64,000 nt of DNA from a virus (IMGVR_UViG_3300045988_111426), one strand, 5' to 3'; counted from the first letter of the stretch, positions 8,197-37,054 are shown. Numbers and translations are program-made. The notes: generated from the letters alone by a model not told the origin.

Positions 8197-9339
8197 CTAT
8201 TCAAAGTCGAGATCGTCATCGATATCTTCCATCATGTCAGAGATCGATGGTTGCTTATCAGTCGGCTTCTTTGCAGGTGCAGGCTTTTCAGCTTCTTCCT
8301 TGAGGGACTTGAACTTGGACATCGTAGAGGAAGCTGGTTCTTCTCGTCGTGGAGATTTCTTCACTGGTTCTTCGACTACCTGTTCTTCGACTTCGATATC
8401 TTCATCATCGTACTTCTCTGTGGACACGACAGATTCACGGACTGCATCGGGAATGAATGGCTTCCCATAACATGCTTGATAAGCCATACCGAACCACTTA
8501 TCGTCATCAATGACATCACGGACTGCTCGATTGAGACGTTCAACATCGTCTTCCGTCATCTTCTGGAACATCGTCTGTGAAAGATCGGGAGACTTTTCCT
8601 TGAGGAAGTTGAAGATCTCCTGCTTGTCCTCATTAGAATCGGTCATTTCTCGTCCATCAATCGTGATTGCGGAACGATCATCGACGAATCTCGACTGCAT
8701 GTAGGTGTTAAGCTCTTGACCTTGATCATTCTGACCCTTGGAAAGAACCATGATGAATTCCTTACCATTGAGAGGATCGAATGGGATGATTGGATTGATC
8801 CCAAGAGCTGGGTTACCGTTGATGAGTTGCATGATCTTTTCATAGATCACACCACCGTATCTGAAGATCTTTACCGATCCTTCGAGTTCGGGATGTTGTG
8901 TGTCCTTGATGACCTGCACCAAAGAGTAGTGGTAGGTGTTGCGCTTCAACTGCTTTGCATTCTTCTTGACGATTGCAGGAGCATCTGATCTGTAGATCTT
9001 GCTCTTATCGTAGCCGAACATCATGAACGCTACAGATGCGATATCCTTCGCCTTAGGCTCGTTCGATGGTGCATCGATGTAGCACTTCTGCCCAGGGTTA
9101 TCTGGATCGGGAACGTAGTAGACGTGCTTTACTACGATGTTCGTGCGCTCTCCGTTGGGGGCGACGTTGACATTTGGTAGGAATCTCAGCTTTGACTGAT
9201 AGATGTTGTCCTTTACATTCTCGTCGTCGATGCGAGGAGAGTAAAAGTCTGGGTTGGAGAATTGGGTGGTTTCCTTCTGCTTGAAGTCATCGGACTTCAT
9301 ATCGAAAATCCCACCAAAATCAAAAACTTCGTTGCTCAT
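8197..9339 (-). CDS. single-stranded DNA-binding protein (T4 gp32-like)
   Basis: 'KLRFLPN...' and 'VKIFRYGGVIYEKIMQLI' parallel gp32 'VIRFLPS' and 'KVFKYRFGKKIWDKI'. Acidic tail 'DIDDDLDFE'. Start moved to the ATG at 9339 (MSNEVFDF). Confidence 0.7.
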   Translation of the reverse strand: MSNEVFDFGGIFDMKSDDFKQKETTQFSNPDFYSPRIDDENVKDNIYQSKLRFLPNVNVAPNGERTNIVVKHVYYVPDPDNPGQKCYIDAPSNEPKAKDIASVAFMMFGYDKSKIYRSDAPAIVKKNAKQLKRNTYHYSLVQVIKDTQHPELEGSVKIFRYGGVIYEKIMQLINGNPALGINPIIPFDPLNGKEFIMVLSKGQNDQGQELNTYMQSRFVDDRSAITIDGREMTDSNEDKQEIFNFLKEKSPDLSQTMFQKMTEDDVERLNRAVRDVIDDDKWFGMAYQACYGKPFIPDAVRESVVSTEKYDDEDIEVEEQVVEEPVKKSPRREEPASSTMSKFKSLKEEAEKPAPAKKPTDKQPSISDMMEDIDDDLDFE

Positions 9340-9417
9340 AATAATGATTGACTGATGATGTTGTTTAAAAGTTCTGTTTTCGAGTTTCTTATGAATCTGA
9401 CACAAACCATAGTTTCT

Positions 9418-11007
9418 TTAGATTATCGATTCATCGATTTCCATGACGATGTTGTCAGAGATCATAAACATGATAGCGACTGATATCGAGTTCTCGATAC
9501 AGTTTTTTATGACACGTGCCGAGTCAATGATACCGTCAGAGATCGAGTTGTACGACTTCTGACGTTTCTTGGCATCGTAACCGTATTCGTCGTCTTCCTT
9601 TACAAAGTAGAGGATTGATGATTCTTCTTCCTCTGATATGCACGAGTTGTCCATGATCTTCTTGAACACTGATTCAAGACCTGTTTTCATAATGTGGAAC
9701 GTGTCCAGTGAAGGATCAAGCGCAGAGATTAGTCTTAGGTACGTGATACCACAACCTGCAACTATTCCGTCCTTGTATGCCGATCTGATAGCACAAATCG
9801 CATCTTCAAGTCTGTCCTTGTGTTCATAGACCTCAGATTCAGAATTCCCACCGACCTTAATGACGGCAACTGATGATCTCAAGGTGGCTATTCTCTTCTC
9901 GATCCATTCCTTGTCTTCCTCGTCAGAATCCATCAGAGACTTTAGGTTCGAGATATGCTCTTCGACTGCAGACGATACACTTTCCTTGTCATTTCTGATC
10001 GTCGTGGTGTTTTTATCCACAAAGACGCTTCGACCGCAAGAGAAGTACTCTTCTGTAAACGAAAGAGGGGTGACGGACTGGTCTCCCACCATAAGTGGCT
10101 TCATACCAAGCGAAATGGAGAGGTCAGTGAGATATTCTTCACGCTTCTGTCCATAGTACGGAGGATTGACAAGACAGATGTTCATCTTTCCACTCTGATT
10201 ATTGGCGATCAATGTGGAAAGTGCTTCACCTTCGATGTTTTCCGCAATGATCAGCAGATCACGGACACCTGTACCGTAGATTCTTGAAAGCGCATTGAGC
10301 ATCGTCTTACCATCTTGGATCTTGTGATTTGTGATGAAGATTGCACAATCGTCAGATTCGAACGACATCTTTGACTTATCATTTACGAAATAATGAGACT
10401 GCCAACCACCGTCAAATCGGAATCCAGATTCGATCGAATAGGTTATATCAGAAAGCTGTGATTGTTCAAGAACGATTATCCCATCTTTGCCGATCTTCCC
10501 ATAAATCTCCGAAAGAAGACCTGCAAGTTTCTCATCGTTGTTCGTGGAGATCTTTGCGATATCGAAGACCTGCTGAATATCGACGATCGGTGTGGCAATT
10601 TCTCGAAGCTTTTCAATGAGGACATCCTTCATCTTTTCCATTTCGTGACGAAGTCGGTGAACATCGATCTCGGGATTCTCATTTAGAAGTCCGTCGATGA
10701 GTTTCATCATCGTATACGCCATCACAACAGAAGACGTTGTTCCATCACCTGCATCAACTGCAGTTCGCATTGATGCTTGCTTTACGAGCTGACAACCTAT
10801 GTTGTGCCAATAATTCTGTAGCTTCATCTTTCTTGCTACAGTCACACCGTCTTTAGTGACCTGTGGCACATCGTACGTGTTGTGCTTGATGATGACATTC
10901 CGACCACCAGGTCCCAGAGTAGACCCAACAACGTCGTGGATCGTCTTTGCACCAACGAGGATCAGCTCTCTGGCTTCTGATCCACTTTTTACATCTACAG
11001 CGTTCAT
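9418..11007 (-). CDS. groL: GroEL-type chaperonin
   Basis: 'TLGPGGRNVII', 'VTKDGVTVA' and 'DGTTSSVV' are colinear with GroEL 'TLGPKGRNVV', 'ITKDGVSVA' and 'DGTTTATV'. 529 aa. Confidence 0.9.
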   Translation of the reverse strand: MNAVDVKSGSEARELILVGAKTIHDVVGSTLGPGGRNVIIKHNTYDVPQVTKDGVTVARKMKLQNYWHNIGCQLVKQASMRTAVDAGDGTTSSVVMAYTMMKLIDGLLNENPEIDVHRLRHEMEKMKDVLIEKLREIATPIVDIQQVFDIAKISTNNDEKLAGLLSEIYGKIGKDGIIVLEQSQLSDITYSIESGFRFDGGWQSHYFVNDKSKMSFESDDCAIFITNHKIQDGKTMLNALSRIYGTGVRDLLIIAENIEGEALSTLIANNQSGKMNICLVNPPYYGQKREEYLTDLSISLGMKPLMVGDQSVTPLSFTEEYFSCGRSVFVDKNTTTIRNDKESVSSAVEEHISNLKSLMDSDEEDKEWIEKRIATLRSSVAVIKVGGNSESEVYEHKDRLEDAICAIRSAYKDGIVAGCGITYLRLISALDPSLDTFHIMKTGLESVFKKIMDNSCISEEEESSILYFVKEDDEYGYDAKKRQKSYNSISDGIIDSARVIKNCIENSISVAIMFMISDNIVMEIDESII

Positions 11008-11281: not shown

Positions 11282-12778
11282 TTAATGTCCGAAGTTATCT
11301 TTTAATATCTGCTTTAAGTGATTAATATCTGCTTTGATTTCTGCCTCTTTGTGTTTTGCTTCTACTCGTTTGTTGAACATGTTCGAGATCATGGTTCGAA
11401 TTGCGGAATCTCTGTTTTTTGAGTAAACTGCACCACTTGATGAATAACACATCGATTCGTCAAGTTCGTGCTGTTCACCCATCTTGTCCACGTAGGTTTT
11501 TCCCTTATCATCGGTATGACCGAGGTAAACATCTTCACCAACGTTCAACATCTGCATAATTGAGGGGAACAGTGATTCGTAGTCATAGATGACAATCCCA
11601 TCATAAACACCAATACCTGGTTGTAAGACGAATCCTGCACTGTAAGTTTCACCTTCGGGAATCTGCTTGTCATAATCCTTTACAAACACTTTGTTGTAAT
11701 GCTTGTAATAGTAGTCACACAAGAGTGTTTCAATCCCTACACTGACGAACATAGACTGTGCAACTTCGACACGTAGAAGATTTGCAAGAACGCTCATTGA
11801 TTCGAATGTTCTACACTTCTTATCGATCAATGCCACGAGGAACGTATCGATGATACCATAAAGCACGTAACGTTCATAGTCCTTCTCATAGAGTTCCATC
11901 AGAGTTTCGGAATGATGGATCTTCTTGACACCAAGGATCTCCGATGCGATAAAGTCGAGTGACATTGATGACTTCTGCTTAATCGATCTATCAAAGAACT
12001 CAAAGATTTGCATGTAGTCGATGATTGGTCGATGAAGAGGAAGTTCGATTTCAATCTTAGATGAATGATCAAACTTGTCTTTCGCAATCGTCGAGTAAAG
12101 CATTCTCTTCGGGGAGAGAATTGTAGGATCAATGTTCGTCTTCTTACATCTGTTGACGAGATATCTTGTATCGAACTTCAAGACGTTCCATCCGAAAATA
12201 CACGGCATCCGTGTTGCGTGATTCTCGACGAAGTCTTTGTTCATTGTGAACTCATCGGGGTAGTAAATGTAACGGAACTTATACCTCTGATGAAGTGTTT
12301 TATCGGTGATTTGTGAAAGATAGTCGTTGATCTTCTGTTCGATAGAGTCGATTTGTGTCTGTGAAAGTGGCTTGATCCCCATGACAGTACCATTCCCGAA
12401 TTCGTCACAATACTGATGCGTGAAGATTCTCCCTACAGGATTTCCAGCATCTGGGAAGTCATCAAAAACTTCCGTTTCGATATCCCAGAAGAACTTACGA
12501 GGTTGATTGTTTGAGAAAATCTTCGCTTGTAAACGTTCTGGTAGAGACAATAAGAACTCGATCTTGCGATATTTGTCGAGATAGGACTTACGTTCCTTTT
12601 TCACAGGGAATCCGTCTTGGGACACGTAAGTCTTATCTCGGAACTTATCATCTTCGGTTGTCTTTGTCCATACGTACTTTTCACGATCATCTATTGTTAT
12701 GTCAGATATCGCAATGTTTCCGTTTTCGTCGAAATAAGACACCGACATCTTGTCTCTGATCTGTTTACAATTGATCAT
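11282..12778 (-). CDS. family-B DNA polymerase, N-terminal half (3'-5' exonuclease plus motif A)
   Basis: ExoI 'FWDIETEV', ExoII 'FGWNVLKFDTRYL', ExoIII 'YGIIDTFLV', motif A 'YDYESLFPSIM'. The ORF stops before motif B. Confidence 0.85.
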   Translation of the reverse strand: MINCKQIRDKMSVSYFDENGNIAISDITIDDREKYVWTKTTEDDKFRDKTYVSQDGFPVKKERKSYLDKYRKIEFLLSLPERLQAKIFSNNQPRKFFWDIETEVFDDFPDAGNPVGRIFTHQYCDEFGNGTVMGIKPLSQTQIDSIEQKINDYLSQITDKTLHQRYKFRYIYYPDEFTMNKDFVENHATRMPCIFGWNVLKFDTRYLVNRCKKTNIDPTILSPKRMLYSTIAKDKFDHSSKIEIELPLHRPIIDYMQIFEFFDRSIKQKSSMSLDFIASEILGVKKIHHSETLMELYEKDYERYVLYGIIDTFLVALIDKKCRTFESMSVLANLLRVEVAQSMFVSVGIETLLCDYYYKHYNKVFVKDYDKQIPEGETYSAGFVLQPGIGVYDGIVIYDYESLFPSIMQMLNVGEDVYLGHTDDKGKTYVDKMGEQHELDESMCYSSSGAVYSKNRDSAIRTMISNMFNKRVEAKHKEAEIKADINHLKQILKDNFGH

Positions 12779-18701: not shown

Positions 18702-19973
18702 CTAAAGCTCTATGAACTTCTTGATTTCATCATACTCAATACCGAGAGTTTTTAGAGCTTTCTTGAAGTCGTAGAGTGTCATCGAACTTCCTCTAAACAC
18801 ACGCTTCGATTCTTCATATGCGTCTTCATCTCCCTTCAACTTCAAGTAGAGCTGTACGATTTCAGAGAACACTTGATAATTCTCCTCGAGATCATCTTTT
18901 ATCTTCTCCTCGTTCACCTCGAGCGACTTCAAGCCATTTGCAAACGAAGAGAATCCAAGATAAAGATAAGACAGAGTTTCGGGGATCATTCTTATGACCA
19001 CTGAATCGGAGAGATCACGATGCATTCTTGATTTCGATAACTTATTAATGTAAAACTCGAAGTCTTTCTGACATCTACAGAAGCATCCTTCCGCATTTTC
19101 AAACTTGATGGGGTTGACCTTGTGGGGCATAGCGGAAGATCCACAATAACCTTCGTCTACCTTCAGTTTGAAATAACCATCCGAGCACATTTGCCAAATC
19201 TGTTGAATGTCGCTAATGATTCTTGAAATGGCCAGATTCCAATCAGAGAATCTTTCACAGAACGATTCCCATCTGTCGGTTTGTGTCGCTTCTTCTCCAC
19301 TAATGGTGAACCTGCCGAACTTCTTGACAAACGAATCCATAAGTTCTGCAACTCTCCGAGGATCAATATCGAAAAGTCTCGATATTGCGAAGTTGTTACC
19401 GACAGCACCAGAGAACTTGACAACTGAATAGCCATTTGTACGTTGTCTAAACTTCAAGACATCATACCGCCATTTATAAACGTCATCTTTCAAAAGATGA
19501 GGAACTGCAGATTGTCCATGAGTCTTTGATAGAGACCAAATGCCCCTTGTCTCTCTATGAAGATTTGTGAGGATTCCTTCGACATAGTTTACCGAACGAT
19601 CAATGACTTCCATTGCTTCTTGCATGAGGATAGACATTGACAAGGAAACTATGTCTTGTGAAGTCAGTCCGAAGTGAACATAAACCGAACCCGACGTTTT
19701 TCTTTGTAAGACATTAATAACTGCCTTGACATCGTGCTTGGTTACACTTTCCTCTTCAAGAATCTCGTTGTAGACAGAACTGTCGAACTTGCAGTTTTTT
19801 CTGATGATGTCTTCGTTTACTTCTATGTTTGCTATCTCTTTTAAGAAGTAAAGAAGATATTCGACTTCGACATTCCACATCGTCTTATAGTACCTTTCGG
19901 AATTAAAGACCTTTGACATGTTCTGTATGACATCCGAATACCTGTGATCGAGAGGAGATACGTTCCGTTGCAT
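18702..19973 (-). CDS. purB: adenylosuccinate lyase
   Basis: 'SPLDHRYS', 'HFGLTSQDI' and the fumarate-lyase signature 'GSSAMPHKVNPIKFENAEG'. Start set to the ATG at 19973 (MQRNVSPLD). Confidence 0.85.
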   Translation of the reverse strand: MQRNVSPLDHRYSDVIQNMSKVFNSERYYKTMWNVEVEYLLYFLKEIANIEVNEDIIRKNCKFDSSVYNEILEEESVTKHDVKAVINVLQRKTSGSVYVHFGLTSQDIVSLSMSILMQEAMEVIDRSVNYVEGILTNLHRETRGIWSLSKTHGQSAVPHLLKDDVYKWRYDVLKFRQRTNGYSVVKFSGAVGNNFAISRLFDIDPRRVAELMDSFVKKFGRFTISGEEATQTDRWESFCERFSDWNLAISRIISDIQQIWQMCSDGYFKLKVDEGYCGSSAMPHKVNPIKFENAEGCFCRCQKDFEFYINKLSKSRMHRDLSDSVVIRMIPETLSYLYLGFSSFANGLKSLEVNEEKIKDDLEENYQVFSEIVQLYLKLKGDEDAYEESKRVFRGSSMTLYDFKKALKTLGIEYDEIKKFIEL

Positions 19974-20052
19974 TTTGATTGATTGATTGGGGTGAAAATA
20001 TTCGTCGATATTCCAGAGCACAAGGAAAGTACCTTCCTTAAGCTCGGAGAGC

Positions 20053-20958: not shown

Positions 20959-22380
20959 TTATTCTTCTACAGCGACAAAGTCGTCGGATTCACGACCAGT
21001 CCCCAGTACAGAAAGCACAACCTTCTTATCATCACCCACAAGCTTGTTGATGGTGTCGATTTCTCCGAACATATTCTTGGAGAGCCAATCTTCTACCTTT
21101 GTTGTGATCTTTTCACGTTCTCCGTCCATTTCGCCATCTACCCAGTTGACGAAGTTGATGACAATATGAGTTTTACCATTTGGAGAGAGATTGTAGAGAA
21201 TGCCGTCGTGCAGAAGGCTCTTATCGAACTCGAAGACTCTTCGGGGGAGCTTGGTAAGTGACGTGCATTTTACATCATCTGGAATCGTCTTCCCATAGTT
21301 CTTTTCGACATCTTCCCACGTGATTTCTCGCTGGTGACTTTCTTCGTTCCAGATTGGAGAATAACCAGTACCGCTGAATGATTCGATGACTTCGTATTCA
21401 AGATATGGGAACTCACGCATTTCGTAGAAGTTGATGAATTCCTTACGTGTGACGATAGAAACGTGATCATCTCCTTCGATGAAGTCGAACAGATGCTTAT
21501 GAGCGTAGTACTTGAGCGTCGATTCCGAGTTCTTGTGAAGTCGGACAACTGGCTTCCCACCAATAAGGCGATACTTCTTGTTGTTGATCTTGATCGGATA
21601 AGTTCTACCATTCAAGATAACGTCACCTGCGAAGAATGGAGGAAGATTCATATCATCCAAAGCTGCACTGATCGTCACGTTTCGACTTGTTGAGTTCTGC
21701 TTGTTATAGCCGAGACCATACGAAAGTGGGAAACCTTGACCAATTTGCAGAAGGACTGATCCTCCATTGATCATAAACGTCATAAGACGCTTTTCGACAT
21801 CACAGATGAACTGCTTGAGTTCTGGGACTTGGTAAGCATAAGTCACCGTCTTGTTTCGAACGACCTTCTTTGCACGAACTGCACCAGATCCAGAGCAAGT
21901 AGATCCGCCTGCGATTGTGCCGTCATGATCAGACGACGAGTAGTTACCATCGATATCGCAAAGACCCTTTTCATAGTCTTCATCGATCTTGGTGATGATC
22001 CCTGCCTTGGGGTGGATGAAGAGCTTATCGAGAGGAAGACCGCTCATCTTGATTTCCTCGAAGAGACGTTCAACGGAGAACGACGCACCGTGACCGATAG
22101 CAACGAACTCGAGCTTTTCGTGGAGGTAGGCAGATGAAGGGAGAACTTCAAACATCATCTTCTTGCCGTCATCGTAGACCCAATGCGATGCATTTGCAGA
22201 GTTCGTAGTACAGACTGCAAGACGCTTATCACCAGTGCCGAACGAGGTGTTCTTCACGATCAGAGATTCACATTTGCCCTTGCCAGATGAACCTGCAGAA
22301 TAACCATCCAACAAGAACGTGATCTTTCCCTTTTCGAACATGTGATCAAACATGCCTACTTGATGCTTCTTGGCTTTCAT
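20959..22380 (-). CDS. divergent adenylosuccinate-synthetase-family enzyme (PurA/PurZ-like)
   Basis: Colinear with PurA by eye. P-loop 'GSSGKGK' (PurA GDEGKGK), 'NSANASH' (GGHNAGH), 'GGSTCSGSGA' (GTTGRGIGP), 'LLQIGQGFPLSYG' (MFEGAQGTLLDIDHG). Carries a large insertion before the C-terminal third. Confidence 0.65.
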   Translation of the reverse strand: MKAKKHQVGMFDHMFEKGKITFLLDGYSAGSSGKGKCESLIVKNTSFGTGDKRLAVCTTNSANASHWVYDDGKKMMFEVLPSSAYLHEKLEFVAIGHGASFSVERLFEEIKMSGLPLDKLFIHPKAGIITKIDEDYEKGLCDIDGNYSSSDHDGTIAGGSTCSGSGAVRAKKVVRNKTVTYAYQVPELKQFICDVEKRLMTFMINGGSVLLQIGQGFPLSYGLGYNKQNSTSRNVTISAALDDMNLPPFFAGDVILNGRTYPIKINNKKYRLIGGKPVVRLHKNSESTLKYYAHKHLFDFIEGDDHVSIVTRKEFINFYEMREFPYLEYEVIESFSGTGYSPIWNEESHQREITWEDVEKNYGKTIPDDVKCTSLTKLPRRVFEFDKSLLHDGILYNLSPNGKTHIVINFVNWVDGEMDGEREKITTKVEDWLSKNMFGEIDTINKLVGDDKKVVLSVLGTGRESDDFVAVEE

Positions 22381-27814: not shown

Positions 27815-28027
27815 TTAGTACACGAGTTTCTTATCCTTCATTGATCTTACGATTCTGACTGGGATAAAGCACTCTACTTTATCATTTCTGAAGACACCAC
27901 AGAGTTCACCACTTGAACTCTGTGTTTTCCCGACATACGTGAAAACACAACCATTGTACGAGATTTGGTCATTCGGTGATAACAAGCCATCACTCGTCAC
28001 GATATAACCGCTGTACTTCTTGTCCAT
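27815..28027 (-). CDS. hypothetical small protein
   Basis: 70-aa ORF in the nucleotide-metabolism operon. Confidence 0.4.
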   Translation of the reverse strand: MDKKYSGYIVTSDGLLSPNDQISYNGCVFTYVGKTQSSSGELCGVFRNDKVECFIPVRIVRSMKDKKLVY

Positions 28028-28040
28028 ATTTGTTCGGTTT

Positions 28041-28910
28041 TTATGGAGCGTACATCAGAGGATGACGAGAATAGAAGTTGACATCTGCTATAATATCACC
28101 ACGTTTCAGAGAAAGGGACTTCTTTCCGATTAGTGTCATATAAACGATGAAATCATCATCAACAATGTCCCACCCTGCAATCATCAGTCCATTGTTCATA
28201 AACATAGACGGAACGACATCTACACTTACAAGCGTTCCCAAAGGTAACTCATAAACACGAAGATCAGTCCTTACAGCGATTCTATCATTCGCCACTATCT
28301 TCACTGTATCATCTCCAAGAATCGCAGGTGGATTTTTACCGACGTATTCAAGAACATCAACGAATCTGGCCACCAAGAGTTCTTCACTTTTGCGGTTCAT
28401 GACCACCACATCTCCCAAACGATCATAGACTTCGTGAACAATCGGTTGATAGTTCTTCTCATAGAAACCGATCTGATTTCGATGAACGAGTGTGAAAGCC
28501 GTCAAGAGATCATAAGGGAAGACTGTGTCGTATTCGTGACAGTCATCTGGGACTTTCGTGAGGTGGATTTGCGACACGTATCTTCTGAAGAGATTCCACA
28601 TTTCTGCACCACCAATCACGAACACATCCTTCTGACGATTTTCGGAAGATTCACAGAAAGCTTTGAGCATTTCCATCGATTTGAAAACGTGAACACCTTC
28701 GATAGAAATGTCGTCTCGTGATAGGACAATGTTTAGTCTTCCTTCAAGTGGCTTTCCGATCTCTTCATATGTCTTCCTGCCCATGATGACAATGTTTCCC
28801 ATCGTCATTTCACGGAACAGATTCATATCTTCTCGGATTCTGAACAGAAGTTTGCCGTCGTTTCCAACAGCGAAGTTCTTATCAACACTGGCTATGAACT
28901 TTACTTTCAT
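28041..28910 (-). CDS. dihydrofolate reductase fused to a dUTPase-like beta-barrel domain
   Basis: The N-terminal half carries 'GNDGKLLFRIREDMNLFREMTMGNIVIMGRKTYEEIGKPLEGRLNIVLSR' and 'VFVIGGAEMW' (DHFR). The C-terminal half carries 'AVRTDLRVYELPLGT..VVPSMFMNNGLMIAGWDIVDDDFIVYMTLIGKKSLSLKRGDIIADVNF' (dUTPase motifs 1-4 pattern, no motif 5). Confidence 0.7.
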   Translation of the reverse strand: MKVKFIASVDKNFAVGNDGKLLFRIREDMNLFREMTMGNIVIMGRKTYEEIGKPLEGRLNIVLSRDDISIEGVHVFKSMEMLKAFCESSENRQKDVFVIGGAEMWNLFRRYVSQIHLTKVPDDCHEYDTVFPYDLLTAFTLVHRNQIGFYEKNYQPIVHEVYDRLGDVVVMNRKSEELLVARFVDVLEYVGKNPPAILGDDTVKIVANDRIAVRTDLRVYELPLGTLVSVDVVPSMFMNNGLMIAGWDIVDDDFIVYMTLIGKKSLSLKRGDIIADVNFYSRHPLMYAP

Positions 28911-28926
28911 GATGATTTATTCTTCA

Positions 28927-29982
28927 TTAAAAGCCATCACAGCAACATTCCGACATGTCACCACCATCGTTGCCAATACAACGTTCGTCTTTTAGTGATC
29001 GACGACGATCTTCTTTGCTTTCGTAGTTGTCCCAACCATCGACTTTTTCACATGGGAATTCCTTATGTGCCACTTTCAAGAACTCGTGTTCACCTCTAAT
29101 AGCCAACACAGCAATCGTCTGATCTTTGTGTATAGTGACAGGTTTCGATCCCATGTTTACAAGACCAACACAGACAACACCATCAGTAATACTCGATGAT
29201 TCCACCGAGATTCCGTTATAGACAAAGTAGTGTAAGATTGTCTTGATATCGACATAAACGTTCTTGGGGATTCTGTAAATCTCGATATCGGTCTTCATGA
29301 AAACTCTGTCACCTTTGTGTAAAACTATGGAATCCCGATGATCAGACTTTCTTCTTACAGTTTCACCAAAGCCGTTGACGTGAACTCTTGGTTCTCGTGC
29401 ACAAACACCATAACAACCAAAACCATCGACACTTGCTGTACACATGAAGACGTTGTCTTTGAACTCGTAATCGGTGACTTTCACGAAGTCATTGAGATGG
29501 TGTTCCCAGACAACGTTCGAAGACCGACGAATATCGAGGATCATCTTCTGAGGGATGTCGGAGAGTTCGTATCTATCGTGAGATTCTGATCCACTCACTT
29601 CCACCATCTTGATTCTGTCGACATGACCTACAAAGCTTCTTGCGATGTGGATGTTGTCGACCATTACGTAAACATCACGATATATGTCAAACTTCGTACC
29701 GAGCATGTCGATGAAATCTCGTATAGATTCTGCACGAACAAACCCTTCACGATTGAAGTTCTTGTTCTGGGTGATGACAACATTTATGCGGTTTGGAAGC
29801 GGTGATATGAGAGTGGAACATGTGTCCTCATCAAAGACTATGATGTTTCCAGTGGTGATCTTTCCGATATAGTCTCGAAGATCCGTGTTGGAGGGTGAAG
29901 ATAGCAGTTTCTGGGCGTTGATTGTCCTCGCTTTGTCGTTGACAAATAGGATCATTTCGATTTCGGTCTTGTTCTTCTTCAT
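28927..29982 (-). CDS. degenerate DHFR-like::dUTPase-like fusion paralogue with Cys-rich tail
   Basis: 'GNIIVFDEDT..PNRINVVITQ' (decayed DHFR pattern), then 'GDRVFMKTDIEIYRIP...SSSITDGVVCVGLVNMGSKPVTIHKDQTIAVLAI'. Tail 'MSECCCDGF'. Confidence 0.5.
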   Translation of the reverse strand: MKKNKTEIEMILFVNDKARTINAQKLLSSPSNTDLRDYIGKITTGNIIVFDEDTCSTLISPLPNRINVVITQNKNFNREGFVRAESIRDFIDMLGTKFDIYRDVYVMVDNIHIARSFVGHVDRIKMVEVSGSESHDRYELSDIPQKMILDIRRSSNVVWEHHLNDFVKVTDYEFKDNVFMCTASVDGFGCYGVCAREPRVHVNGFGETVRRKSDHRDSIVLHKGDRVFMKTDIEIYRIPKNVYVDIKTILHYFVYNGISVESSSITDGVVCVGLVNMGSKPVTIHKDQTIAVLAIRGEHEFLKVAHKEFPCEKVDGWDNYESKEDRRRSLKDERCIGNDGGDMSECCCDGF

Positions 29983-30010
29983 CTTTGTTTGTGGTTGATT
30001 ATGATTGCGA

Positions 30011-30976
30011 TTATGAGTGTTTGATCAGTTTAGTTCCCCATTTGCTGGTTTCCATATTCTCTGAGAAGTCGTTATTACAACCTATGAGTTTGTAGTCTCC
30101 GATTATGTGAACATTACCAACCACTTTCTTATAGTCCAAAACTACACGATGTGGTGAATTGTTGACAAAAGAAAGGATAATGTCACCATCGGAGATTTTG
30201 CACGACTGCATAACAAAACCGAGAGCACGGAAACGAGTATTTTCCACAACACGGATATCAGTTTCGGACGGTATTCTGTACATCTTGAAATCTGTGACGA
30301 TCGAAAACGTGTCACCTCCTTCGATGATTGTCGACAGTCCATTCGAAAGTATTCTGTTTACAGGTTCACCTTCGGAATTCACATGTGAAAGAACGTCCCA
30401 ACAGTAAAGTTCACAACCTTTGTCTTTGGAGACATAACTGTTGCAAATGACAACATTGTCTGCGAATTCACGTTCTTGATGGATTATTCCGTTGGGGAAT
30501 TCTGAGTAGTTTGTCATCTTACACACTTTGTGGACATCTTCCAAGAGTGGTCTCGTCATTTCCTCGTTCCATTTCTCATCAGTGACGAGGAAGTGGATTT
30601 TGGAAACGTATTGAACAAGCGATGACCATGCGTCATATCCACCAATCACGAAGACCTTTTCATTTCTCCCACGAAGGAAATCACAAAGATGTTTGTATGA
30701 ACAGATGAACTTTGTATCTTCGGTGTCTTCATGTTCATAATCAAAGAGAACGATTGACGGAACTCTAAAGTTTGATCTTTCCATCATTTCGTAGTACTCT
30801 CCGTCCATCACGATTATTGCGCCTTCACGAGTGTCATTTATCAACTTTCTCAGTGATTCTCTATACTTCTCATCTGTGAACGGATTCGTATAATCGTTGA
30901 CACTCAAGGACTTATCGACATATGCGACGAATTCCACCTTCAGTTTTTTCCATATTGCTCCGAATTTTTTCTGCAA
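30011..30976 (-). CDS. degenerate DHFR-like::dUTPase-like fusion paralogue
   Basis: 'KVEFVAYVDKSLSV', 'VFVIGGYDAWSSL', then 'GDTFSIVTDFKMYRIP...CKISDGDIILSFVNNSPHRVVLDYKKVVGNVHI'. The track start at 30976 is TTG. Confidence 0.5.
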   Translation of the reverse strand: MQKKFGAIWKKLKVEFVAYVDKSLSVNDYTNPFTDEKYRESLRKLINDTREGAIIVMDGEYYEMMERSNFRVPSIVLFDYEHEDTEDTKFICSYKHLCDFLRGRNEKVFVIGGYDAWSSLVQYVSKIHFLVTDEKWNEEMTRPLLEDVHKVCKMTNYSEFPNGIIHQEREFADNVVICNSYVSKDKGCELYCWDVLSHVNSEGEPVNRILSNGLSTIIEGGDTFSIVTDFKMYRIPSETDIRVVENTRFRALGFVMQSCKISDGDIILSFVNNSPHRVVLDYKKVVGNVHIIGDYKLIGCNNDFSENMETSKWGTKLIKHS

Positions 30977-31011
30977 TGTTCTGAGTTTTTCTGCATAGCT
31001 TGCTTGAGTTT

Positions 31012-31797
31012 TTAAACACTCACATCCGCCTTGATCGTAGGATGATGAACGTAGTTCTTGATTACGATTTGATCGATGAGATTTGCGGAGATATTGTCAA
31101 TGTCGATATCTCCCACGATTTCTATCTCTGGGAGTTCGTATGGTTTTCGGGATAGTTGGAGCTTTACTTGATCCAAGTGATTCTTGTAGATGTGAAGATC
31201 TCCAAACGAATGGATAAATCGATGAGGTTTCTTGTCACAGATCTTTGCAACAATGTAAAGCAGAAGTGAGTATTGAGCAAGATTGAATGGAACACCCAAG
31301 AAGAGATCGGCAGATCTTTGATAAAGCTTTAATGAAAGCCTGTCACCTTCGACATAGAACTGGAAGAAACAATGACAAGGAGGAAGTGCCATTTCCGAGA
31401 GTTCTTGAGGATTCCAAGCCGAGACGATTATTCTTCGTGAATCTGGATTGTTCCGAATTTGGTCGATTGCTTCTCGAATCTGATCAACCCCTCCGAAATC
31501 TCTCCATTGCTTTCCATAGATCTTTCCAAGGTCTCCGTTTTCATCTGCCCATTCATCCCAGATCGTCACACCATTGTCTCGGAGGAACTTCACGTTTGTA
31601 TCACCACGGAGCATCCAAGCAAGTTCGAATATGACACTTCTCATATGGATTCTCTTCGTGGTGAGGATTGGGAATTTTTCACTTACGTCATATTCCACTT
31701 GATGACCAAACACAGAGATTGTTCCAGTTCCAGTTCTGTCCGTTCTTTCTGTCCCGTTTTCGAGAACGTACTTGAGCAAATCGAGATAAGTCTGCAT
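31012..31797 (-). CDS. thyA: thymidylate synthase
   Basis: 'DRTGTGT', '[14 protein letters not shown]', '[19 protein letters not shown]' (Asn retained), and canonical C-terminus '[11 protein letters not shown]'. Confidence 0.9.
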
Positions 31798-31843: not shown

Positions 31844-31879
31844 AAGACCTCACCTTTCTTATATCAAAGGTGAGGTCTT
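31844..31879 (-). terminator. perfect 14-bp hairpin
   Basis: aagacctcaccttt / aaaggtgaggtctt with an 8-nt loop. Confidence 0.6.
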
Positions 31880-31907: not shown

Positions 31908-33311
31908 CTATCTACTTCTCTTTTTCTTATAGTCTTCGATGAGCTTTGTCACGTAGGATTCAGCGTCGAATTCTCCCGAAAGCATTGATAGAATCTGAGG
32001 TGAATAACCACTGACGAAGACGTTTCCATCTTTGCTAACAGTTGGTAGTGTGACATTGTCCACTGAGAGATTCCACCAGATCATCTTCACACCCTTCTGA
32101 TTGAGAGTATCAAGATGCGTCGCATTTCTATCATAGGAATCGTCGAACTGCATATCACTAAGAACAAGGACATATTCGGGCAGATCTTCCGTTATGTTGT
32201 TCAGATTTCGAAGAACTGCTTCGAAATTCGTGCAAGTACAGTCACCGAACGATTCGAGGATCGCCATATCACGAACATAGGAGAAATCCTCATCTTTTGT
32301 CAATTTCATGATCCGAGAATCGTCCGAGAAGACGATGAAGTGATTACGGAGATAATCAGAATGGTGTGAAACATAGTGACCAATTGAACGTGCCTTACCA
32401 ATTGAATCGAATCTGTCGAACATTGATCCAGAGCCGTCAATGATTGGGATGATCTTCCCAAAGTTCATAGATCCCAGAGCCTTGAAAGCTTCTGTATAGA
32501 ACGTGTCATGTTCCATCCCCTTCTCACTGGGATTTATCTTTCCGTCATATGCCGTGTAACGATAATCAAAGCCATTGAATGCAGTGTTTCGATATGACCT
32601 TAGTAAGTCGTATGGCGTGGAAACGGACTGATTCATCTTGGTTTTCCCAGATTTTAGTTCCTCGAGATACTTCTTGAAGTTTTCATCCTTGAAGAATTCC
32701 TTCTTATGTCGAAGCATAGAAAGTGAAGGAACATGTGAGTAATCATCTGGGAATTCTCCACGTGATCTCACAGATTCGACAGTCATAGGGGATGCGCACC
32801 ATCCACGATAGATTGTCTTCGAAATCTTCTGTCTTCGAAGTTCGTTTCTGATGATCTTGAACTTCTTGGATCTCTCACGAGGAAGCCACTTTTTCAGAAG
32901 TTCGTAATTACCACGGATAGAATCGTTGTCCATGGCTTCCTTGATGTACCCCACGACCTCCTTGGGGGTGTGAGTGTACAAGATATCATCAGCACGACCA
33001 ACCTCGATCACATCATCGATCGAAATGTTCTGAATTTTCAAGAGAACACGACCGATTTCTCTTTCACCAATCCCCATACGAGGATCTCTGATATACATTG
33101 AGAAGAAGCGGTTGAACTCACTCTTTTCAAGGAACTCGGGATAATCGACAATGATCAGTTTCTCTACTTCTGCAAGTCCCTTGTACTTTGCGATTTCACG
33201 GATCTTTTGAAGTCTGAACAAGAAATCGACATAAGGATTTCCGATGTATCTCTTATAGGCTCTGTCACCATTCGTCGTTCTCGTCTCGTTGAATGCATCG
33301 AAGATGTTCAT
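31908..33311 (-). CDS. DUF2828-like protein with vWA (MIDAS) domain
   Basis: 'TTNGDRAY..GNPYVDFLF' (as in DUF2828 'TENG...SGNPCLDFFF', recalled), MIDAS 'IIDGSGSM', and 'VLVLSDMQFDD'. Start trimmed to the ATG at 33311. Confidence 0.55.
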   Translation of the reverse strand: MNIFDAFNETRTTNGDRAYKRYIGNPYVDFLFRLQKIREIAKYKGLAEVEKLIIVDYPEFLEKSEFNRFFSMYIRDPRMGIGEREIGRVLLKIQNISIDDVIEVGRADDILYTHTPKEVVGYIKEAMDNDSIRGNYELLKKWLPRERSKKFKIIRNELRRQKISKTIYRGWCASPMTVESVRSRGEFPDDYSHVPSLSMLRHKKEFFKDENFKKYLEELKSGKTKMNQSVSTPYDLLRSYRNTAFNGFDYRYTAYDGKINPSEKGMEHDTFYTEAFKALGSMNFGKIIPIIDGSGSMFDRFDSIGKARSIGHYVSHHSDYLRNHFIVFSDDSRIMKLTKDEDFSYVRDMAILESFGDCTCTNFEAVLRNLNNITEDLPEYVLVLSDMQFDDSYDRNATHLDTLNQKGVKMIWWNLSVDNVTLPTVSKDGNVFVSGYSPQILSMLSGEFDAESYVTKLIEDYKKKRSR

Positions 33312-33385
33312 AATCGTTTGATTGAGATTGATCTTTATTTGTTGTTTGTGATTGTTTGTGATTGATTGCTTAGCGATTAATGTTT

Positions 33386-33416
33386 CGGTCATCTTATCTT
33401 TACGACAAGATGACCG
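33386..33416 (-). terminator. 10-bp hairpin inside the discarded N-terminal ORF extension
   Basis: cggtcatctt / aagatgaccg. Confidence 0.4.
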
Positions 33417-35851: not shown

Positions 35852-37054
35852 TTACCAAAGTGGATCGAAAGCGATCAATGAAACAGGCAATGCTTGTACA
35901 CCAATCGAAGTGATTATCTTGTTAAGTGGTGAAAGATAAAGCATTTCGAACTGCTTGGAATAATCGATTGGATAAAGGAACTCATAACAAGGGTCTCCGT
36001 TGACAAATGCGAAGACATCACTTCGGGGATCTGTTGAATAGTAGTATTGAATCTTCATCCCCGATCTGATCTGTTGATATTTGTGTTTATACTTCGACTT
36101 TGTAAGTTCGGCATTATAAACACTCGAAGCTCTGATCTGAATTGTTACCCCCTTGACGTATTCGAAGACACCATCTTTTGCAGTTATCACATATTTCTCA
36201 TAACCATTAACTCTCTGAGAGATTGCAACATCTTCCACGTTTGCACTTTCAAATTTTGATTTTTGCATTTTGACGTGGTCGATGAAATCTCGAAGATTCA
36301 GTTCTCGGTGTTGCAAGATATAGTGAACTGTCTCACGGAGAAGTTCTCGGACAAACTTTGGTGTCGATGACTTGTTAATATCGAGACCTTTGACTTCTAC
36401 GTTTTCAAGTGGCTTGAAATAAACGCCTTCTTCCCAAGAGATATTCTTGATGTACTTCTTCTTCGATGTCCACAAGACGTTGTGGCAGATCATCTCAAAA
36501 GCAAGCTTCATTGAACGTTGTCCATCAATCTTCTGCTGGAATCCGTTGAACTTGCGGATATAACCAACGAGCATATCTTTGACACAATCATTCAGATCGT
36601 TTTCACCAATATCAAAGACGAATTCTTCAAGAGTTCCCTTGTAATCGGTCTTGTCCATGATGTCCTTGTAACGGATAAACACGGAATCTGTGTCGGCATA
36701 GTTCACCGCATTGAAATCGATCGGATCACACTTTGTAATCCCCATCTTTGCATGCAGTTCCCGATGATTTGGGAATCTCTGTTGGAAATACCTATTGAAG
36801 AAGAGAATGGTGTAACGGATCACATGAGAAGATTGCTCAGACACGGATCTTGCAATTTCTCTATCGTAGAGGATAAATGAATGATAACCAAGAACACCAT
36901 AGATTGAGTTGAGAGCAACTTTCGAGACTTTGTTAATTGTTGACTGATAACTTGCTTCTCTCTCAAGTCTGGATATTTCCATCAGAATCTCCTCTTCTGT
37001 GACATTCTGTCCTTTCTTCAAGGATGAGTGGTTAAGTTCTATCTCAAGGATCAT
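35852..37054 (-). CDS. family-B DNA polymerase, C-terminal half (motifs B and C, KKKY, thumb)
   Basis: Motif B 'KVALNSIYGVLG', motif C 'YADTDSVFI', and 'TSKKKYIKN'. Begins with its own ATG. Confidence 0.85.
   Translation of the reverse strand: MILEIELNHSSLKKGQNVTEEEILMEISRLEREASYQSTINKVSKVALNSIYGVLGYHSFILYDREIARSVSEQSSHVIRYTILFFNRYFQQRFPNHRELHAKMGITKCDPIDFNAVNYADTDSVFIRYKDIMDKTDYKGTLEEFVFDIGENDLNDCVKDMLVGYIRKFNGFQQKIDGQRSMKLAFEMICHNVLWTSKKKYIKNISWEEGVYFKPLENVEVKGLDINKSSTPKFVRELLRETVHYILQHRELNLRDFIDHVKMQKSKFESANVEDVAISQRVNGYEKYVITAKDGVFEYVKGVTIQIRASSVYNAELTKSKYKHKYQQIRSGMKIQYYYSTDPRSDVFAFVNGDPCYEFLYPIDYSKQFEMLYLSPLNKIITSIGVQALPVSLIAFDPLW

What the first reader, a model, noticed from the sequence alone, without database searches (positions are those of the whole stretch)
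28041..30976. Three tandem DHFR-like::dUTPase-like fusion paralogues next to thyA
- **Architecture:** three consecutive genes (289, 351 and 321 aa) share one layout. An N-terminal DHFR-fold domain is followed by a C-terminal domain whose pattern follows trimeric dUTPase motifs 1-4 ('..RTDLRVYELP..', '..PSMFMNNGLMI..', 'GWDIVDDDF', 'KRGDIIADVNF'). It lacks the glycine-rich motif 5.
- **First copy:** only this one keeps a convincing DHFR signature ('REDMNLF', 'IVIMGRKTYEEIG', 'VFVIGGAEMW').
- **Copies two and three:** these are progressively degenerate. Copy two adds a Cys-rich tail ('MSECCCDGF').
- **Context:** they sit directly upstream of a canonical ThyA (PCH Cys, Asn in 'PFNLAQY', normal C-terminus).
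- **Novelty:** I know DHFR-TS fusions, but not a DHFR-dUTPase-like fusion family expanded in triplicate.
- **Possible roles:** substrate channelling in dTMP synthesis, a regulatory or moonlighting Dut-like role, or structural virion use.
Basis: partly seen in the sequence, partly recalled or inferred. Interest (0 to 1): 0.7.

Follow-up and report, generated by a model that had tools for sequence, protein, structure and literature searches.

The report
Phage DHFR fused to dead dUTPase, triplicated
An uncultured ~150 kb phage carries, right after its thymidylate synthase gene, three tandem copies of a previously undescribed fusion of dihydrofolate reductase to a catalytically dead dUTPase-fold domain; only the last copy still looks like a working reductase.

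Summary
Three same-strand ORFs (321, 351 and 289 aa) follow thyA on the minus strand and are mutual paralogues over both halves (BLASTP 3e-14, 3e-8, 2e-11).

- **N-terminal halves:** all are DHFR-like. Pfam gives 1e-36, 3e-8 and 2e-3. The weakest copy still models as a DHFR fold (TM 0.74).
- **C-terminal halves:** these are true remote homologues of trimeric dUTPase. The AF2 model has pLDDT 87. The Foldseek top 50 are all dUTPase or dCTP deaminase. hhalign gives 95.6% probability. A family profile reaches Pfam-validated phage dUTPases at E 4e-5 among 1.8 billion proteins.
- **Lost catalysis:** every catalytic residue of motifs I-IV is replaced, motif III is shortened and motif V is absent. The domain is a pseudo-dUTPase.
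- **Which copy works:** only p289 keeps the DHFR catalytic and NADPH-binding residues. It is the orthologue of a single-copy fusion in a distant relative.
- **The other two copies:** p321 and p351 are dead in both halves. They are under purifying selection (dN/dS 0.15-0.23) but are naturally deleted in two related genomes.

The family is rare, confined to one uncultured phage clade, and annotated only as "dihydrofolate reductase". The function of the dead domains and copies is inferred, most likely oligomerisation or scaffolding. It is a new domain architecture built from known folds.

The parts
31012..31797 (-). thyA, canonical thymidylate synthase (261 aa). It is the first gene of the co-oriented array.
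   Evidence: Pfam PF00303 E 2.6e-112, full length. The catalytic-Cys context PPCHCFF and the dUMP-specifying Asn in PFNLAQY are visible in the translation. dN/dS is 0.045-0.1 against relatives.
30011..30976 (-). p321, paralogue 1 (321 aa): a dead DHFR-like domain fused to a dead dUTPase-fold domain, plus a short disordered tail. The start is TTG 30976 or GTG 30937.
   Evidence: - BLASTP to p289 gives 3e-14 over both domains.
- Pfam DHFR_1 scores only 18 bits.
- The full-length AF2 model has pLDDT 82 and pTM 0.78.
- Foldseek: B. anthracis DHFR E 6.8e-10, TM 0.74, rmsd 3.5.
- dN/dS is 0.23.
30461..30937 (-). p321 DHFR-like domain (about aa 14-172).
   Evidence: At the E. coli positions, D27 is S, G43-R44 is D-G, R57 is V/I and T113 is L; G95-G96 is kept. 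These substitutions are the same in 8 orthologues.
30077..30460 (-). p321 dUTPase-fold domain (about aa 173-300). The tail, aa 301-321, lies at 30014-30076.
   Evidence: The family profile A3 covers aa 167-320. The model shows a beta-barrel from E175 to E299, and the tail has pLDDT below 50.
28927..29982 (-). p351, paralogue 2 (351 aa): a DHFR-like domain without an NADPH site, fused to a dead dUTPase-fold domain and an acidic Cys-rich tail ending in F.
   Evidence: - Pfam DHFR_1 E 2.7e-8.
- BLASTP to p289 3e-8 and to p321 2e-11.
- A small dUTPase HMM hits it at E 4.5e-6 among the window's ORFs.
- dN/dS is 0.15.
- Its 90% cluster has 66 member sequences, many from ~150 kb contigs.
29467..29982 (-). 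p351 DHFR-like domain (about aa 1-172).
   Evidence: D27, L54 and R57 (the folate side) are kept in 7 of 8 orthologues. G43-R44 is D-E, G95-G96 is D-N or D-D, Y100 is A/M and T113 is V/I.
29068..29466 (-). p351 dUTPase-fold domain (about aa 173-305). The tail, aa 306-351, lies at 28930-29067.
   Evidence: The HMM alignment to true dUTPases covers aa 167-295. Motif I Asp is G, motif II R-S is I-L, motif III has a 4-residue deletion with the catalytic acid replaced by S and Tyr by T, and motif IV R..Q is T..V. Tails were compared.
28041..28910 (-). p289, paralogue 3 (289 aa): an apparently functional DHFR fused to a dead dUTPase-fold domain with no tail. It is the orthologue of the ancestral single-copy fusion.
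   Evidence: - Pfam DHFR_1 E 9.7e-37.
- Best solved relative is B. anthracis DHFR, E 5e-27.
- P0046, the single-copy fusion in L002, is closest to p289: 34% identity over 285 aa, E 5e-41.
- It is retained in every related locus, including the deletion variants.
28416..28910 (-). p289 DHFR domain (aa 1-165).
   Evidence: G15, D27, G43-R44-K-T46, R57, S63-R64, G95-G96 and T113 are all kept. W22 is F and Y100 is W. dN/dS is 0.11.
28044..28415 (-). p289 dUTPase-fold domain (aa 166-289).
   Evidence: AF2 pLDDT 86.6. The Foldseek PDB and viral top hits are dUTPases. hhalign gives 95.6%. Motif I Asp is V, motif II R-S is V-P, motif III is shortened by 5 residues, motif IV R..Q is I..D, and there is no motif V. 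dN/dS is 0.19.
31844..31879 (-). Conserved hairpin in the intergenic region just upstream of thyA: a 14-bp perfect stem with loop GATATAAG. It may be a boundary or regulatory element of the array.
   Evidence: It folds at -27.8 kcal/mol in its 110-nt context. The stem shows compensatory changes in L003, and a different stem with the same loop occurs in the distant L002. It is unique in the window and has no Rfam match.

Best explanation
**What it is.** This is the thymidylate-cycle module of an uncultured ~150 kb T4-like-replisome phage. ThyA makes dTMP and dihydrofolate. The last gene of the array, p289, is the working DHFR that regenerates tetrahydrofolate.

**The fusion.** In this lineage the DHFR gene became fused to a phage dUTPase gene. 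The dUTPase moiety then lost every catalytic and nucleotide-binding residue, so what remains is a jelly-roll beta-barrel.

**Most likely role (inferred).** The barrel most likely serves as an oligomerisation or docking module. All characterised members of this fold family assemble as trimers or pseudo-trimers.

**The triplication.** The fusion gene was later triplicated in tandem. The two upstream copies, p321 and p351, also lost the DHFR cofactor site. p351 keeps the folate-side residues but has acidic residues where NADPH phosphates bind. p321 lost both sides. These copies are pseudoenzymes in both halves. They are maintained by purifying selection but are dispensable. I infer that they act as accessory, regulatory or scaffolding subunits that associate with p289 or other partners through the dUTPase-like barrel and their tails.

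**Shown versus inferred.**
- Shown: the architecture, the paralogy, the dUTPase homology, the loss of motifs, the retention of DHFR residues only in p289, the purifying selection, the natural deletions, and the single-copy ancestral state.
- Inferred: DHFR activity of p289, lack of activity of the other domains, the oligomerisation or scaffold role, and co-transcription.
For: **Architecture and paralogy:**

**dUTPase homology of the C-domain**
- AF2 model, pLDDT 86.6.
- Foldseek PDB top 50 are all dUTPase or Dcd; BFVD gives the same.
- hhalign 95.6%, E 1e-8.
- The profile search reaches P0047-49 at E 3.8e-5 to 2.8e-4. Those three pass Pfam's dUTPase gathering score and sit in other phage genomes.

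**Loss of the dUTPase catalytic set**
- Alignments; tails.
- No Pfam dUTPase hit at E<=1.

**DHFR residues**
- p289 keeps the full catalytic and NADPH set in 8 of 8 orthologues. The p351 and p321 groups carry fixed substitutions.
- p321 still has the DHFR fold, TM 0.74.

**Evolution**
- A distant relative, L002, has one fusion gene directly after thyA, and it is closest to p289.
- The triple array occurs in 8 related loci as well as the window.
- dN/dS is 0.15-0.23 for all three copies and below 0.4 for each domain, against 0.04-0.1 for thyA and RNR.
- L005 and L006 (150 and 146 kb contigs) have p321 and p351 collapsed into a 248-aa chimera or a 128-aa remnant, while p289 is intact.

**Operon-like layout:** gaps are 35, 28 and 16 nt, and no minus-strand terminator-like site lies inside the array.

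**Trimer precedent:** active sites of trimeric dUTPases are built from motifs of two or three subunits, and diverged copies can form pseudo-heterotrimers (PMC12524310).
Against: - No oligomeric state could be computed or measured. The trimer or scaffold role rests only on family precedent.
- Natural loss of p321 and p351 in two genomes shows they are not needed for viability. That weakens any obligatory heterotrimer model.
- p289 carries W22F and Y100W relative to E. coli DHFR, so full activity is not guaranteed.
- dS between the compared genomes is about 1-1.9, close to saturation, so the dN/dS values are approximate.
- Whether the phage has a separate true dUTPase outside this window is unknown. 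None is present in the 64 kb.
Confidence: 0.5

Rival explanations
1. The dUTPase-like domains are not inert. They still bind a pyrimidine nucleotide (dUMP, dUTP or dTTP) without hydrolysing it. In this reading they act as allosteric sensors or substrate-handover modules that couple DHFR to ThyA, and the degenerate copies tune that regulation.
For: - The domain is fused to a dTMP-cycle enzyme and always sits next to thyA.
- The barrel is under purifying selection in all three copies, dN/dS 0.17-0.35.
- A conserved acidic patch, GWDIVDDD, occupies the motif III position in the p289 group.
- In dUTPases, uracil is read largely by backbone atoms of a hairpin (general knowledge).
Against: - The phosphate- and Mg-binding residues are all replaced by non-equivalent residues: motif I Asp, motif II Arg-Ser, motif IV Arg and Gln.
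- Motif III, which includes the uracil/deoxyribose hairpin and its Tyr, is shortened by 4-5 residues.
- Motif V is absent.
- No polar residue cluster is conserved across the three paralogues. The invariant residues are V, T, D, Y, F and G, which are core positions.
Confidence: 0.17
2. The two degenerate copies have been neofunctionalised for host takeover or counter-defence. They would bind or decoy a host factor, by analogy with staphylococcal phage Dut binding the SaPI repressor Stl, or with the herpesvirus dUTPase-related proteins. Their link to dTMP synthesis would then be only historical.
For: - They evolve faster than neighbouring core genes: 58-62% aa identity against 92-94% for thyA and RNR in the same genome pair.
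- Copy number varies between closely related genomes.
- The p351 tail is hypervariable.
- There are precedents for dUTPase folds recruited to non-enzymatic roles (PMC10868460; PMC12524310).
Against: - There is no similarity to any known defence or anti-defence family. This was not specifically scanned in PADLOC; Pfam, PHROGs and NCBIfam give only DHFR.
- The copies remain embedded and apparently co-transcribed in the nucleotide-metabolism block.
- Both domains of both copies are conserved rather than one being shed.
Confidence: 0.18
3. p321 and p351 are functionless duplicates on their way to being lost, and the C-terminal barrel of p289 is an inert passenger.
For: - Both halves of both copies have lost catalytic residues.
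- Two natural genomes have deleted most of them by recombination between the copies.
- A distant relative has a single copy, so one copy appears to suffice.
Against: - The reading frames are intact, and dN/dS is 0.15-0.23 overall and below 0.4 per domain across lineages separated by dS above 1.
- The array is present in 8 of the 10 in-clade related loci (all but L005 and L006), and in the window itself.
- The p351 cluster alone has 66 distinct member sequences.
- The substitutions in the dead sites are themselves fixed within each orthologue group.
- Both copies model as well-folded two-domain proteins.
Confidence: 0.1
4. The proteins are virion (baseplate or tail) components, as was historically claimed for T4 DHFR.
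For: Only historical precedent, from own knowledge of the T4 literature. The window also contains T4-type genes: terminase, gp32-like SSB and a split family-B polymerase.
Against: The genes lie in a nucleotide-metabolism and replication block: RNR, thyA, polB fragment, methylase, PurZ-like and PurB-like genes. They are not among structural genes. There is no PHROG structural hit.
Confidence: 0.03

Closest known systems
Chromosomal/phage type DHFR (FolA, T4 Frd; Pfam PF00186)
   Same: p289 aa 1-165 is a full-length DHFR domain (E 1e-36). It keeps the catalytic Asp, the GRKT and GG NADPH motifs, and Arg57 and Thr113. It is adjacent to thyA, as in many phages (PMC7824862).
   Different: It carries a 124-aa C-terminal dUTPase-fold domain not reported for DHFRs. 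W22 is F and Y100 is W. Two extra paralogues have lost the NADPH site, and p321 has also lost the catalytic acid.
Homotrimeric dUTPase (Dut; Pfam PF00692) / dCTP deaminase superfamily
   Same: Same jelly-roll fold and detectable sequence homology. The order and spacing of the segments corresponding to motifs I-IV are preserved.
   Different: All catalytic and ligand residues of motifs I-IV are substituted, motif III is shortened by 4-5 residues, and the Gly-rich motif V arm is absent. The Pfam model does not detect it. It is fused to DHFR.
Bifunctional DHFR-TS of protozoa and plants
   Same: DHFR is covalently joined to another protein of the dTMP pathway. Foldseek also lists DHFR-TS chains through the DHFR part.
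   Different: The partner here is a dUTPase-fold domain, not thymidylate synthase. ThyA is a separate upstream gene. The partner domain is catalytically dead, so electrostatic channelling of dihydrofolate as in DHFR-TS cannot be assumed.
Herpesvirus dUTPase-related proteins (e.g. HCMV UL82/pp71, MHV68 ORF10)
   Same: A viral dUTPase fold that was duplicated, lost dUTP binding and activity, and was kept for other functions (PMC10868460; PMC12524310).
   Different: Those are eukaryotic-virus proteins built from a duplicated-and-fused double barrel, with no DHFR. There is no detectable specific relationship; the resemblance is one of evolutionary mode only.
Drosophila virilis pseudo-heterotrimeric dUTPase and moonlighting phage Duts (phi11/80alpha-Stl, T5)
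   Same: These show that three diverged dUTPase barrels can assemble into one trimer-like body, and that phage Dut proteins can have activity-independent roles (PMC12524310).
   Different: Those proteins retain all five motifs and are active. Here the three barrels are on three separate polypeptides and are inactive, and assembly is untested.

Membership tests
Dihydrofolate reductase (PF00186, FolA type) | Significant match to the family model above the curated threshold | tested here: met
   p289 scores 126.6 bits and p351 scores 34.1 bits, against a gathering score of 25. p321 scores only 18.3 bits, below threshold. It is still homologous: BLASTP to p289 gives 3e-14, and its fold matches at TM 0.74, E 6.8e-10. 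The feature is therefore met for p289 and p351, and met for p321 only as a fold and homology match.
Dihydrofolate reductase (PF00186, FolA type) | Catalytic carboxylate (E. coli Asp27) with its Thr113 partner, and folate-binding Arg57 | tested here: met
   - p289 group: D, T and R in 8 of 8 orthologues, so the feature is met.
- p351 group: D and R are kept (7 of 8 for D) but T113 is V/I, so it is partly met.
- p321 group: S, L and V/I, so it is not met.

The B. anthracis alignment from PDB agrees.
Dihydrofolate reductase (PF00186, FolA type) | NADPH-binding motifs (G43-R44-x-T46, S63-S/R64, G95-G96) | tested here: met
   - p289 group: GRKT, SR and GG, so the feature is met.
- p351 group: D-E-D-T, T-Q/S and D-N, so it is not met.
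- p321 group: D-G-E-Y and F-(gap), with GG kept, so it is not met.
Dihydrofolate reductase (PF00186, FolA type) | NADPH-dependent reduction of dihydrofolate | not testable with these tools
   This needs an enzyme assay or folA complementation.
Trimeric dUTPase (PF00692) | Jelly-roll beta-barrel fold of the dUTPase/Dcd superfamily | tested here: met
   The AF2 model of the p289 C-domain has pLDDT 86.6. All 50 best PDB matches are dUTPase or dCTP deaminase, with E from 3.7e-4 and TM 0.5-0.6; BFVD gives the same. The full-length p321 model shows the same barrel.
Trimeric dUTPase (PF00692) | Sequence match to the family model / statistically supported homology | tested here: inconclusive
   There is no Pfam dUTPase hit at E<=1 for any copy, so the curated membership threshold is not met. 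Remote homology is nevertheless supported:
- hhalign 95.6%, E 1e-8.
- The family profile reaches true dUTPases at E 3.8e-5.
- A dUTPase HMM hits p351 at E 4.5e-6 among the window's ORFs.
Trimeric dUTPase (PF00692) | Five conserved motifs with their catalytic residues: motif I Asp, II Arg-Ser, III Asp and Tyr, IV Arg..Gln, and the V Gly-rich arm | tested here: not met
   - Motif I Asp is V, G or Y.
- Motif II R-S is V-P, I-L or N-T.
- Motif III is shortened by 4-5 residues and has no Tyr.
- Motif IV R..Q is I..D, T..V or V..N.
- Motif V is absent from all tails.

These are therefore not dUTPases in the enzymatic sense.
Trimeric dUTPase (PF00692) | Homotrimeric assembly with C-terminal strand exchange | not testable with these tools
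   Only single-chain prediction was available. This needs multimer prediction, SEC-MALS or native MS.
Bifunctional DHFR-TS | DHFR and thymidylate synthase on one polypeptide | tested here: not met
   ThyA is a separate 261-aa ORF ending 35 nt before p321. The fused partner is dUTPase-like, not TS.

The most novel reading that the evidence does not exclude
The three paralogues assemble through their dead dUTPase barrels into a 1:1:1 heterotrimer, a split version of a pseudo-heterotrimeric dUTPase. It would carry one live and two dead DHFR heads. The acidic, Cys-rich, Phe-terminated tail of p351 would mimic the acidic C-terminal tip of the phage's own gp32-like SSB, which ends ...DIDDDLDFE. That mimicry would dock the thymidylate cycle onto the replisome. 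This would be a hard-wired, genetically separable form of the T4 'dNTP synthetase complex' idea.
Probability: 0.12. Interest if true: 0.75.

Novelty: new variant of a known kind. Interest (0 to 1): 0.5.

Why it matters
- **A new architecture.** It adds a domain combination, DHFR joined to a dUTPase-fold pseudoenzyme, to the short list of covalent couplings in the thymidylate pathway, of which DHFR-TS is the classic case.
- **An unusual evolutionary pattern for a phage.** Tandem expansion into pseudoenzymes that are dead in both halves yet kept under purifying selection resembles the herpesvirus dUTPase-related proteins.
- **A tractable model.** If the barrels are assembly modules, the system could show how phages physically organise dNTP synthesis. 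One copy is active, two are dead, and natural deletion variants are already available as controls.
- **An annotation warning.** Two of the three genes are publicly labelled 'dihydrofolate reductase' although at least one of those cannot bind NADPH. The dUTPase-like domain is invisible to Pfam.

Tried and rejected
- **Close cultured relatives.** Megablast of the array against 50,697 GenBank phages found no match. tblastn with the p351 C-domain found no match even at E<=1. The RNR finds only relatives at 48% identity or less.
- **A tblastn hit to Xanthomonas phage XacN1.** It seemed to extend from DHFR into the next ORF, suggesting a similar DHFR-plus-partner pair. That ORF is an Acb1 anti-CBASS protein unrelated to the family (hhalign probability 0.3%), so the extension was spurious.
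- **Direct profile search of PDB sequences with the C-domain.** It gave only non-significant hits: dUTPases at E about 1 and an OMP decarboxylase at E 0.12. It was useful as a lead only.
- **More members of the distant single-copy lineage (P0046).**
  - The word-indexed protein search found nothing.
  - IMG/VR found nothing.
  - JGI metagenome contigs found nothing.
- **Promoter and terminator consensus scan.** Counts were at or below shuffle expectation and uninformative.
- **Rfam on the region.** Nothing credible.
- **The loop motif of the thyA-upstream hairpin.** It is not a repeated element in the window.
- **Canonical dUTPase in the window.** None was found. The rest of the ~150 kb genome could not be scanned.
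- **Multimer structure prediction of homo- versus hetero-trimers.** This was not possible with the single-chain tool.

Full report
**1. Observation**

The region holds three consecutive minus-strand ORFs:
- 30976-30011: 321 aa, here called p321.
- 29982-28927: 351 aa, p351.
- 28910-28041: 289 aa, p289.

They lie directly downstream, in the direction of transcription, of a canonical thyA at 31797-31012 (Pfam PF00303, E 2.6e-112). The gaps between the genes are 35, 28 and 16 nt, and a conserved 70-aa ORF follows after 13 nt. No minus-strand terminator-like site lies inside the array.

**2. Paralogy and the DHFR halves**

The three proteins are homologous along their whole length:
- p289 vs p321: 3e-14.
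- p289 vs p351: 3e-8.
- p351 vs p321: 2e-11.

Pfam DHFR_1 gives 126.6 bits for p289, 34.1 bits for p351 and 18.3 bits for p321, against a gathering score of 25. A full-length AF2 model of the most degenerate copy, p321, has pLDDT 82.1 and pTM 0.78. Its best PDB matches are exclusively DHFRs, the top one being B. anthracis DHFR at E 6.8e-10, TM 0.74 and rmsd 3.5 A. All three N-terminal halves therefore have the DHFR fold.

I aligned orthologues from eight genomes to E. coli FolA (reference sequence from memory; the PDB alignment agrees). The result:
- **p289 group:** keeps G15, D27, G43-R44-K-T46, R57, S63-R64, G95-G96 and T113 without exception. W22 is F and Y100 is W.
- **p351 group:** keeps the folate-side residues D27, L54 and R57. 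The NADPH phosphate-binding glycines and arginine are replaced by acidic residues: G43-R44 is D-E, and G95-G96 is D-N or D-D.
- **p321 group:** has lost D27 (S), R57 (V/I), G43-R44 (D-G) and T113 (L).

p289 is therefore the only plausible enzyme. This is an inference from residues, not a measurement.

**3. The C-terminal halves are dUTPase-fold pseudoenzymes**

Pfam and PHROGs see nothing in the C-terminal 125-180 residues. An AF2 model of the p289 C-domain, built on a 20-sequence family alignment, is confident: pLDDT 86.6 and pTM 0.81.

Fold evidence:
- Foldseek against the PDB returns only dUTPases and dCTP deaminases in the top 50. The best is EIAV dUTPase at E 3.7e-4, and TM values are 0.5-0.6.
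- The viral structure library gives the same picture after the self-hit A0A8S5VTG7.

Sequence evidence is independent and significant:
- A profile of the family, searched against 1.84 billion representative proteins, finds only the family itself, a repetitive false positive, one distant fusion protein (P0046) and three proteins at E 3.8e-5 to 2.8e-4.
- Those three proteins pass Pfam's dUTPase threshold and carry all five motifs. They are encoded in other phage genomes.
- hhalign of the family against these proteins plus E. coli Dut gives 95.6% probability, E 1e-8, over 132 columns.
- A small dUTPase HMM picks p351 out of the window's 704 ORFs at E 4.5e-6.

The alignments place the catalytic positions as follows:
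- Motif I Asp is V, G or Y.
- Motif II Arg-Ser is V-P, I-L or N-T.
- Motif III is shortened by 4-5 residues and lacks the sugar-discriminating Tyr.
- Motif IV Arg..Gln is I..D, T..V or V..N.
- No copy has the glycine-rich motif V.

The residues invariant across the family are V, T, D, Y, F and G at core positions. They are structural rather than a polar site. The domain is thus a homologue of dUTPase that fails the enzymatic definition of the family.

**4. Distribution and history**

The family is small. There are about 42 clusters at 90% identity among 5.8 billion proteins, nearly all on ~145-151 kb contigs. Six IMG/VR contigs carry it. Public names are 'MAG TPA: Dihydrofolate reductase [Ackermannviridae sp.]' (DAG97891.1 and DAG97890.1). 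No GenBank phage record matches.

Copy number across related loci:
- The full triple array is present in eight related loci, as well as in the window.
- A more distant contig, L002, has the same gene neighbourhood (DUF5131, DUF2828/DUF7788, thyA) but a single fusion gene, P0046, immediately after thyA.
- P0046 is closest to p289: 34% identity over 285 aa, E 5e-41, against 2e-10 for p351 and 3e-7 for p321.

The fusion therefore predates the triplication, and p289 is the direct descendant of the original gene.

Selection and dispensability:
- Between the window and the divergent L003, dN/dS is 0.15 for p289, 0.15 for p351 and 0.23 for p321. It is below 0.4 for each domain separately. thyA and RNR score 0.04-0.1. 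dS is near saturation, so these values are approximate.
- Two ~150 kb contigs carry natural deletions generated between the paralogues. In one, a 248-aa chimera joins the p321 N-terminus to the p351 barrel. In the other, only a 128-aa remnant is left. p289 is intact in both.

The degenerate copies are therefore selected for but dispensable.

**5. Mechanism**

What is shown is summarised in sections 1-4. The following is inferred.

ThyA plus p289 form the phage's thymidylate cycle. The dead barrel is kept because it provides a structural function. The most likely function is oligomerisation or docking, because the fold family is built around trimer or pseudo-trimer formation, with active sites shared between subunits (PMC12524310). 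p321 and p351 would be accessory subunits or adaptors using the same barrel.

Rivals are:
- a non-catalytic nucleotide sensor;
- neofunctionalisation toward host or defence interactions, with precedents in staphylococcal phage Dut-Stl and the herpesvirus dUTPase-related proteins (PMC10868460);
- neutral decay;
- a virion role.

None could be excluded by computation. Neutral decay and the virion role are disfavoured by the selection data and the gene context.

A speculative extension concerns the p351 tail. It is hypervariable, but in 9 of 10 in-clade orthologues (8 of the 9 full-length p351 copies, L003 being the exception, plus the L005 chimera) it is acidic, contains 3-5 Cys and ends in D/G-F. 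This resembles the acidic end of the phage's own gp32-like SSB...DIDDDLDFE. It could be a replisome-docking tip. T4's dNTP-synthetase-complex concept and the terminal-Phe acidic tails of SSB and T7 gp2.5 are cited from my own knowledge, not from a tool result.

**6. Comparison and novelty**

- **Relation to known families.** The array works like a phage DHFR next to ThyA. p289 passes the DHFR membership tests available here. p351 and p321 are DHFR-fold pseudoenzymes. The C-domains are members of the dUTPase superfamily by homology and fold but not of the enzyme family.
- **Literature.** Full-text searches found no DHFR-dUTPase(-like) fusion. The jumbo-phage survey reports only the usual DHFR-TS co-occurrence (PMC7824862).
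- **Rating.** I rate this a new variant of known kinds: a new domain architecture and a pseudoenzyme expansion, but not a categorically new system.

**7. Verdict**

The function of the dead parts is open. Interest is 0.5. It is a clean, previously undescribed architecture with natural genetic controls, but it is made of familiar folds, confined to one uncultured phage clade, and has no demonstrated new mechanism.

Noticed in passing
window 31844-31879 (minus strand), between the DUF2828/DUF7788 gene and thyA: A perfect 14-bp hairpin (AAGACCTCACCTTT / AAAGGTGAGGTCTT) with loop GATATAAG. The stem covaries in L003 (three compensatory changes). In the distant L002 a different 22-bp stem carries the same loop and is followed by a T-run. 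It is not repeated elsewhere in the window and has no Rfam match. It could be a terminator or regulatory element with a sequence-specific loop.
   Followed up: partly
window 20959-22380 (-) and 18702-20021 (-): A 473-aa protein matches adenylosuccinate synthetase only in its N-terminal part (Pfam E 1.7e-8). It also matches phrog_1211, '2-aminooxy adenylosuccinate synthetase', which is PurZ-like (E 8.7e-24). Next to it is an adenylosuccinate lyase (PurB-like). This hints at a 2-aminoadenine (Z-base) or other purine-modification pathway.
   Followed up: partly
window 11282-12778 (-) and 35852-37054 (-): The family-B DNA polymerase appears split into two genes about 23 kb apart. One carries the exonuclease domain plus the start of the polymerase domain, and the other carries the rest of the polymerase domain. 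The thyA/DHFR array, RNR and purine genes lie between them.
   Followed up: no
window 28930-29067 (-), p351 tail; window 8197-9405 (-), gp32-like SSB: The p351 tail is hypervariable but acidic, contains 3-5 Cys (CC-x7-C(C) or C-x11-CCC) and ends in D/G-F in 9 of 10 in-clade orthologues. The phage's gp32-like SSB ends in ...DIDDDLDFE. This may be mimicry of an SSB tip and/or a metal-binding Cys cluster.
   Followed up: partly
L005 5001-5747 and L006 5001-5387 (related ~150 kb contigs): These loci carry natural recombinant deletions between the paralogues. One is a 248-aa chimera joining p321 residues 1-47 to the p351 barrel and tail. The other is a 128-aa remnant joined at a GAI(I)V / GVVCV microhomology. 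The p289 orthologue is intact in both.
   Followed up: yes
window 30937-30996 (-), start region of p321: The first in-frame start is TTG at 30976, giving MQKKFGAIWKKLKVEF. Relatives begin MQKKLxVEF, so the window has a 6-residue insertion near the N-terminus. An identical contig was gene-called from GTG 30937, giving 308 aa. The true start is uncertain.
   Followed up: partly
window 31908-33392 (-): A 494-aa protein with DUF2828 and DUF7788 (vWA-like) domains matches phrog_850, 'RNA-binding protein' (E 1e-39). It is conserved immediately upstream of thyA in all related loci, including the distant L002.
   Followed up: no
window 9418-11007 (-): A phage-encoded GroEL/Cpn60-type chaperonin (Pfam E 2e-38) lies next to the gp32-like SSB gene.
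   Followed up: no
window 27815-28027 (-): A small 70-aa ORF lies 13 nt downstream of p289, with no family match. ORFs of 61-72 aa occupy the same position in L003, L005 and L006, so it may be the last gene of the same transcription unit.
   Followed up: no
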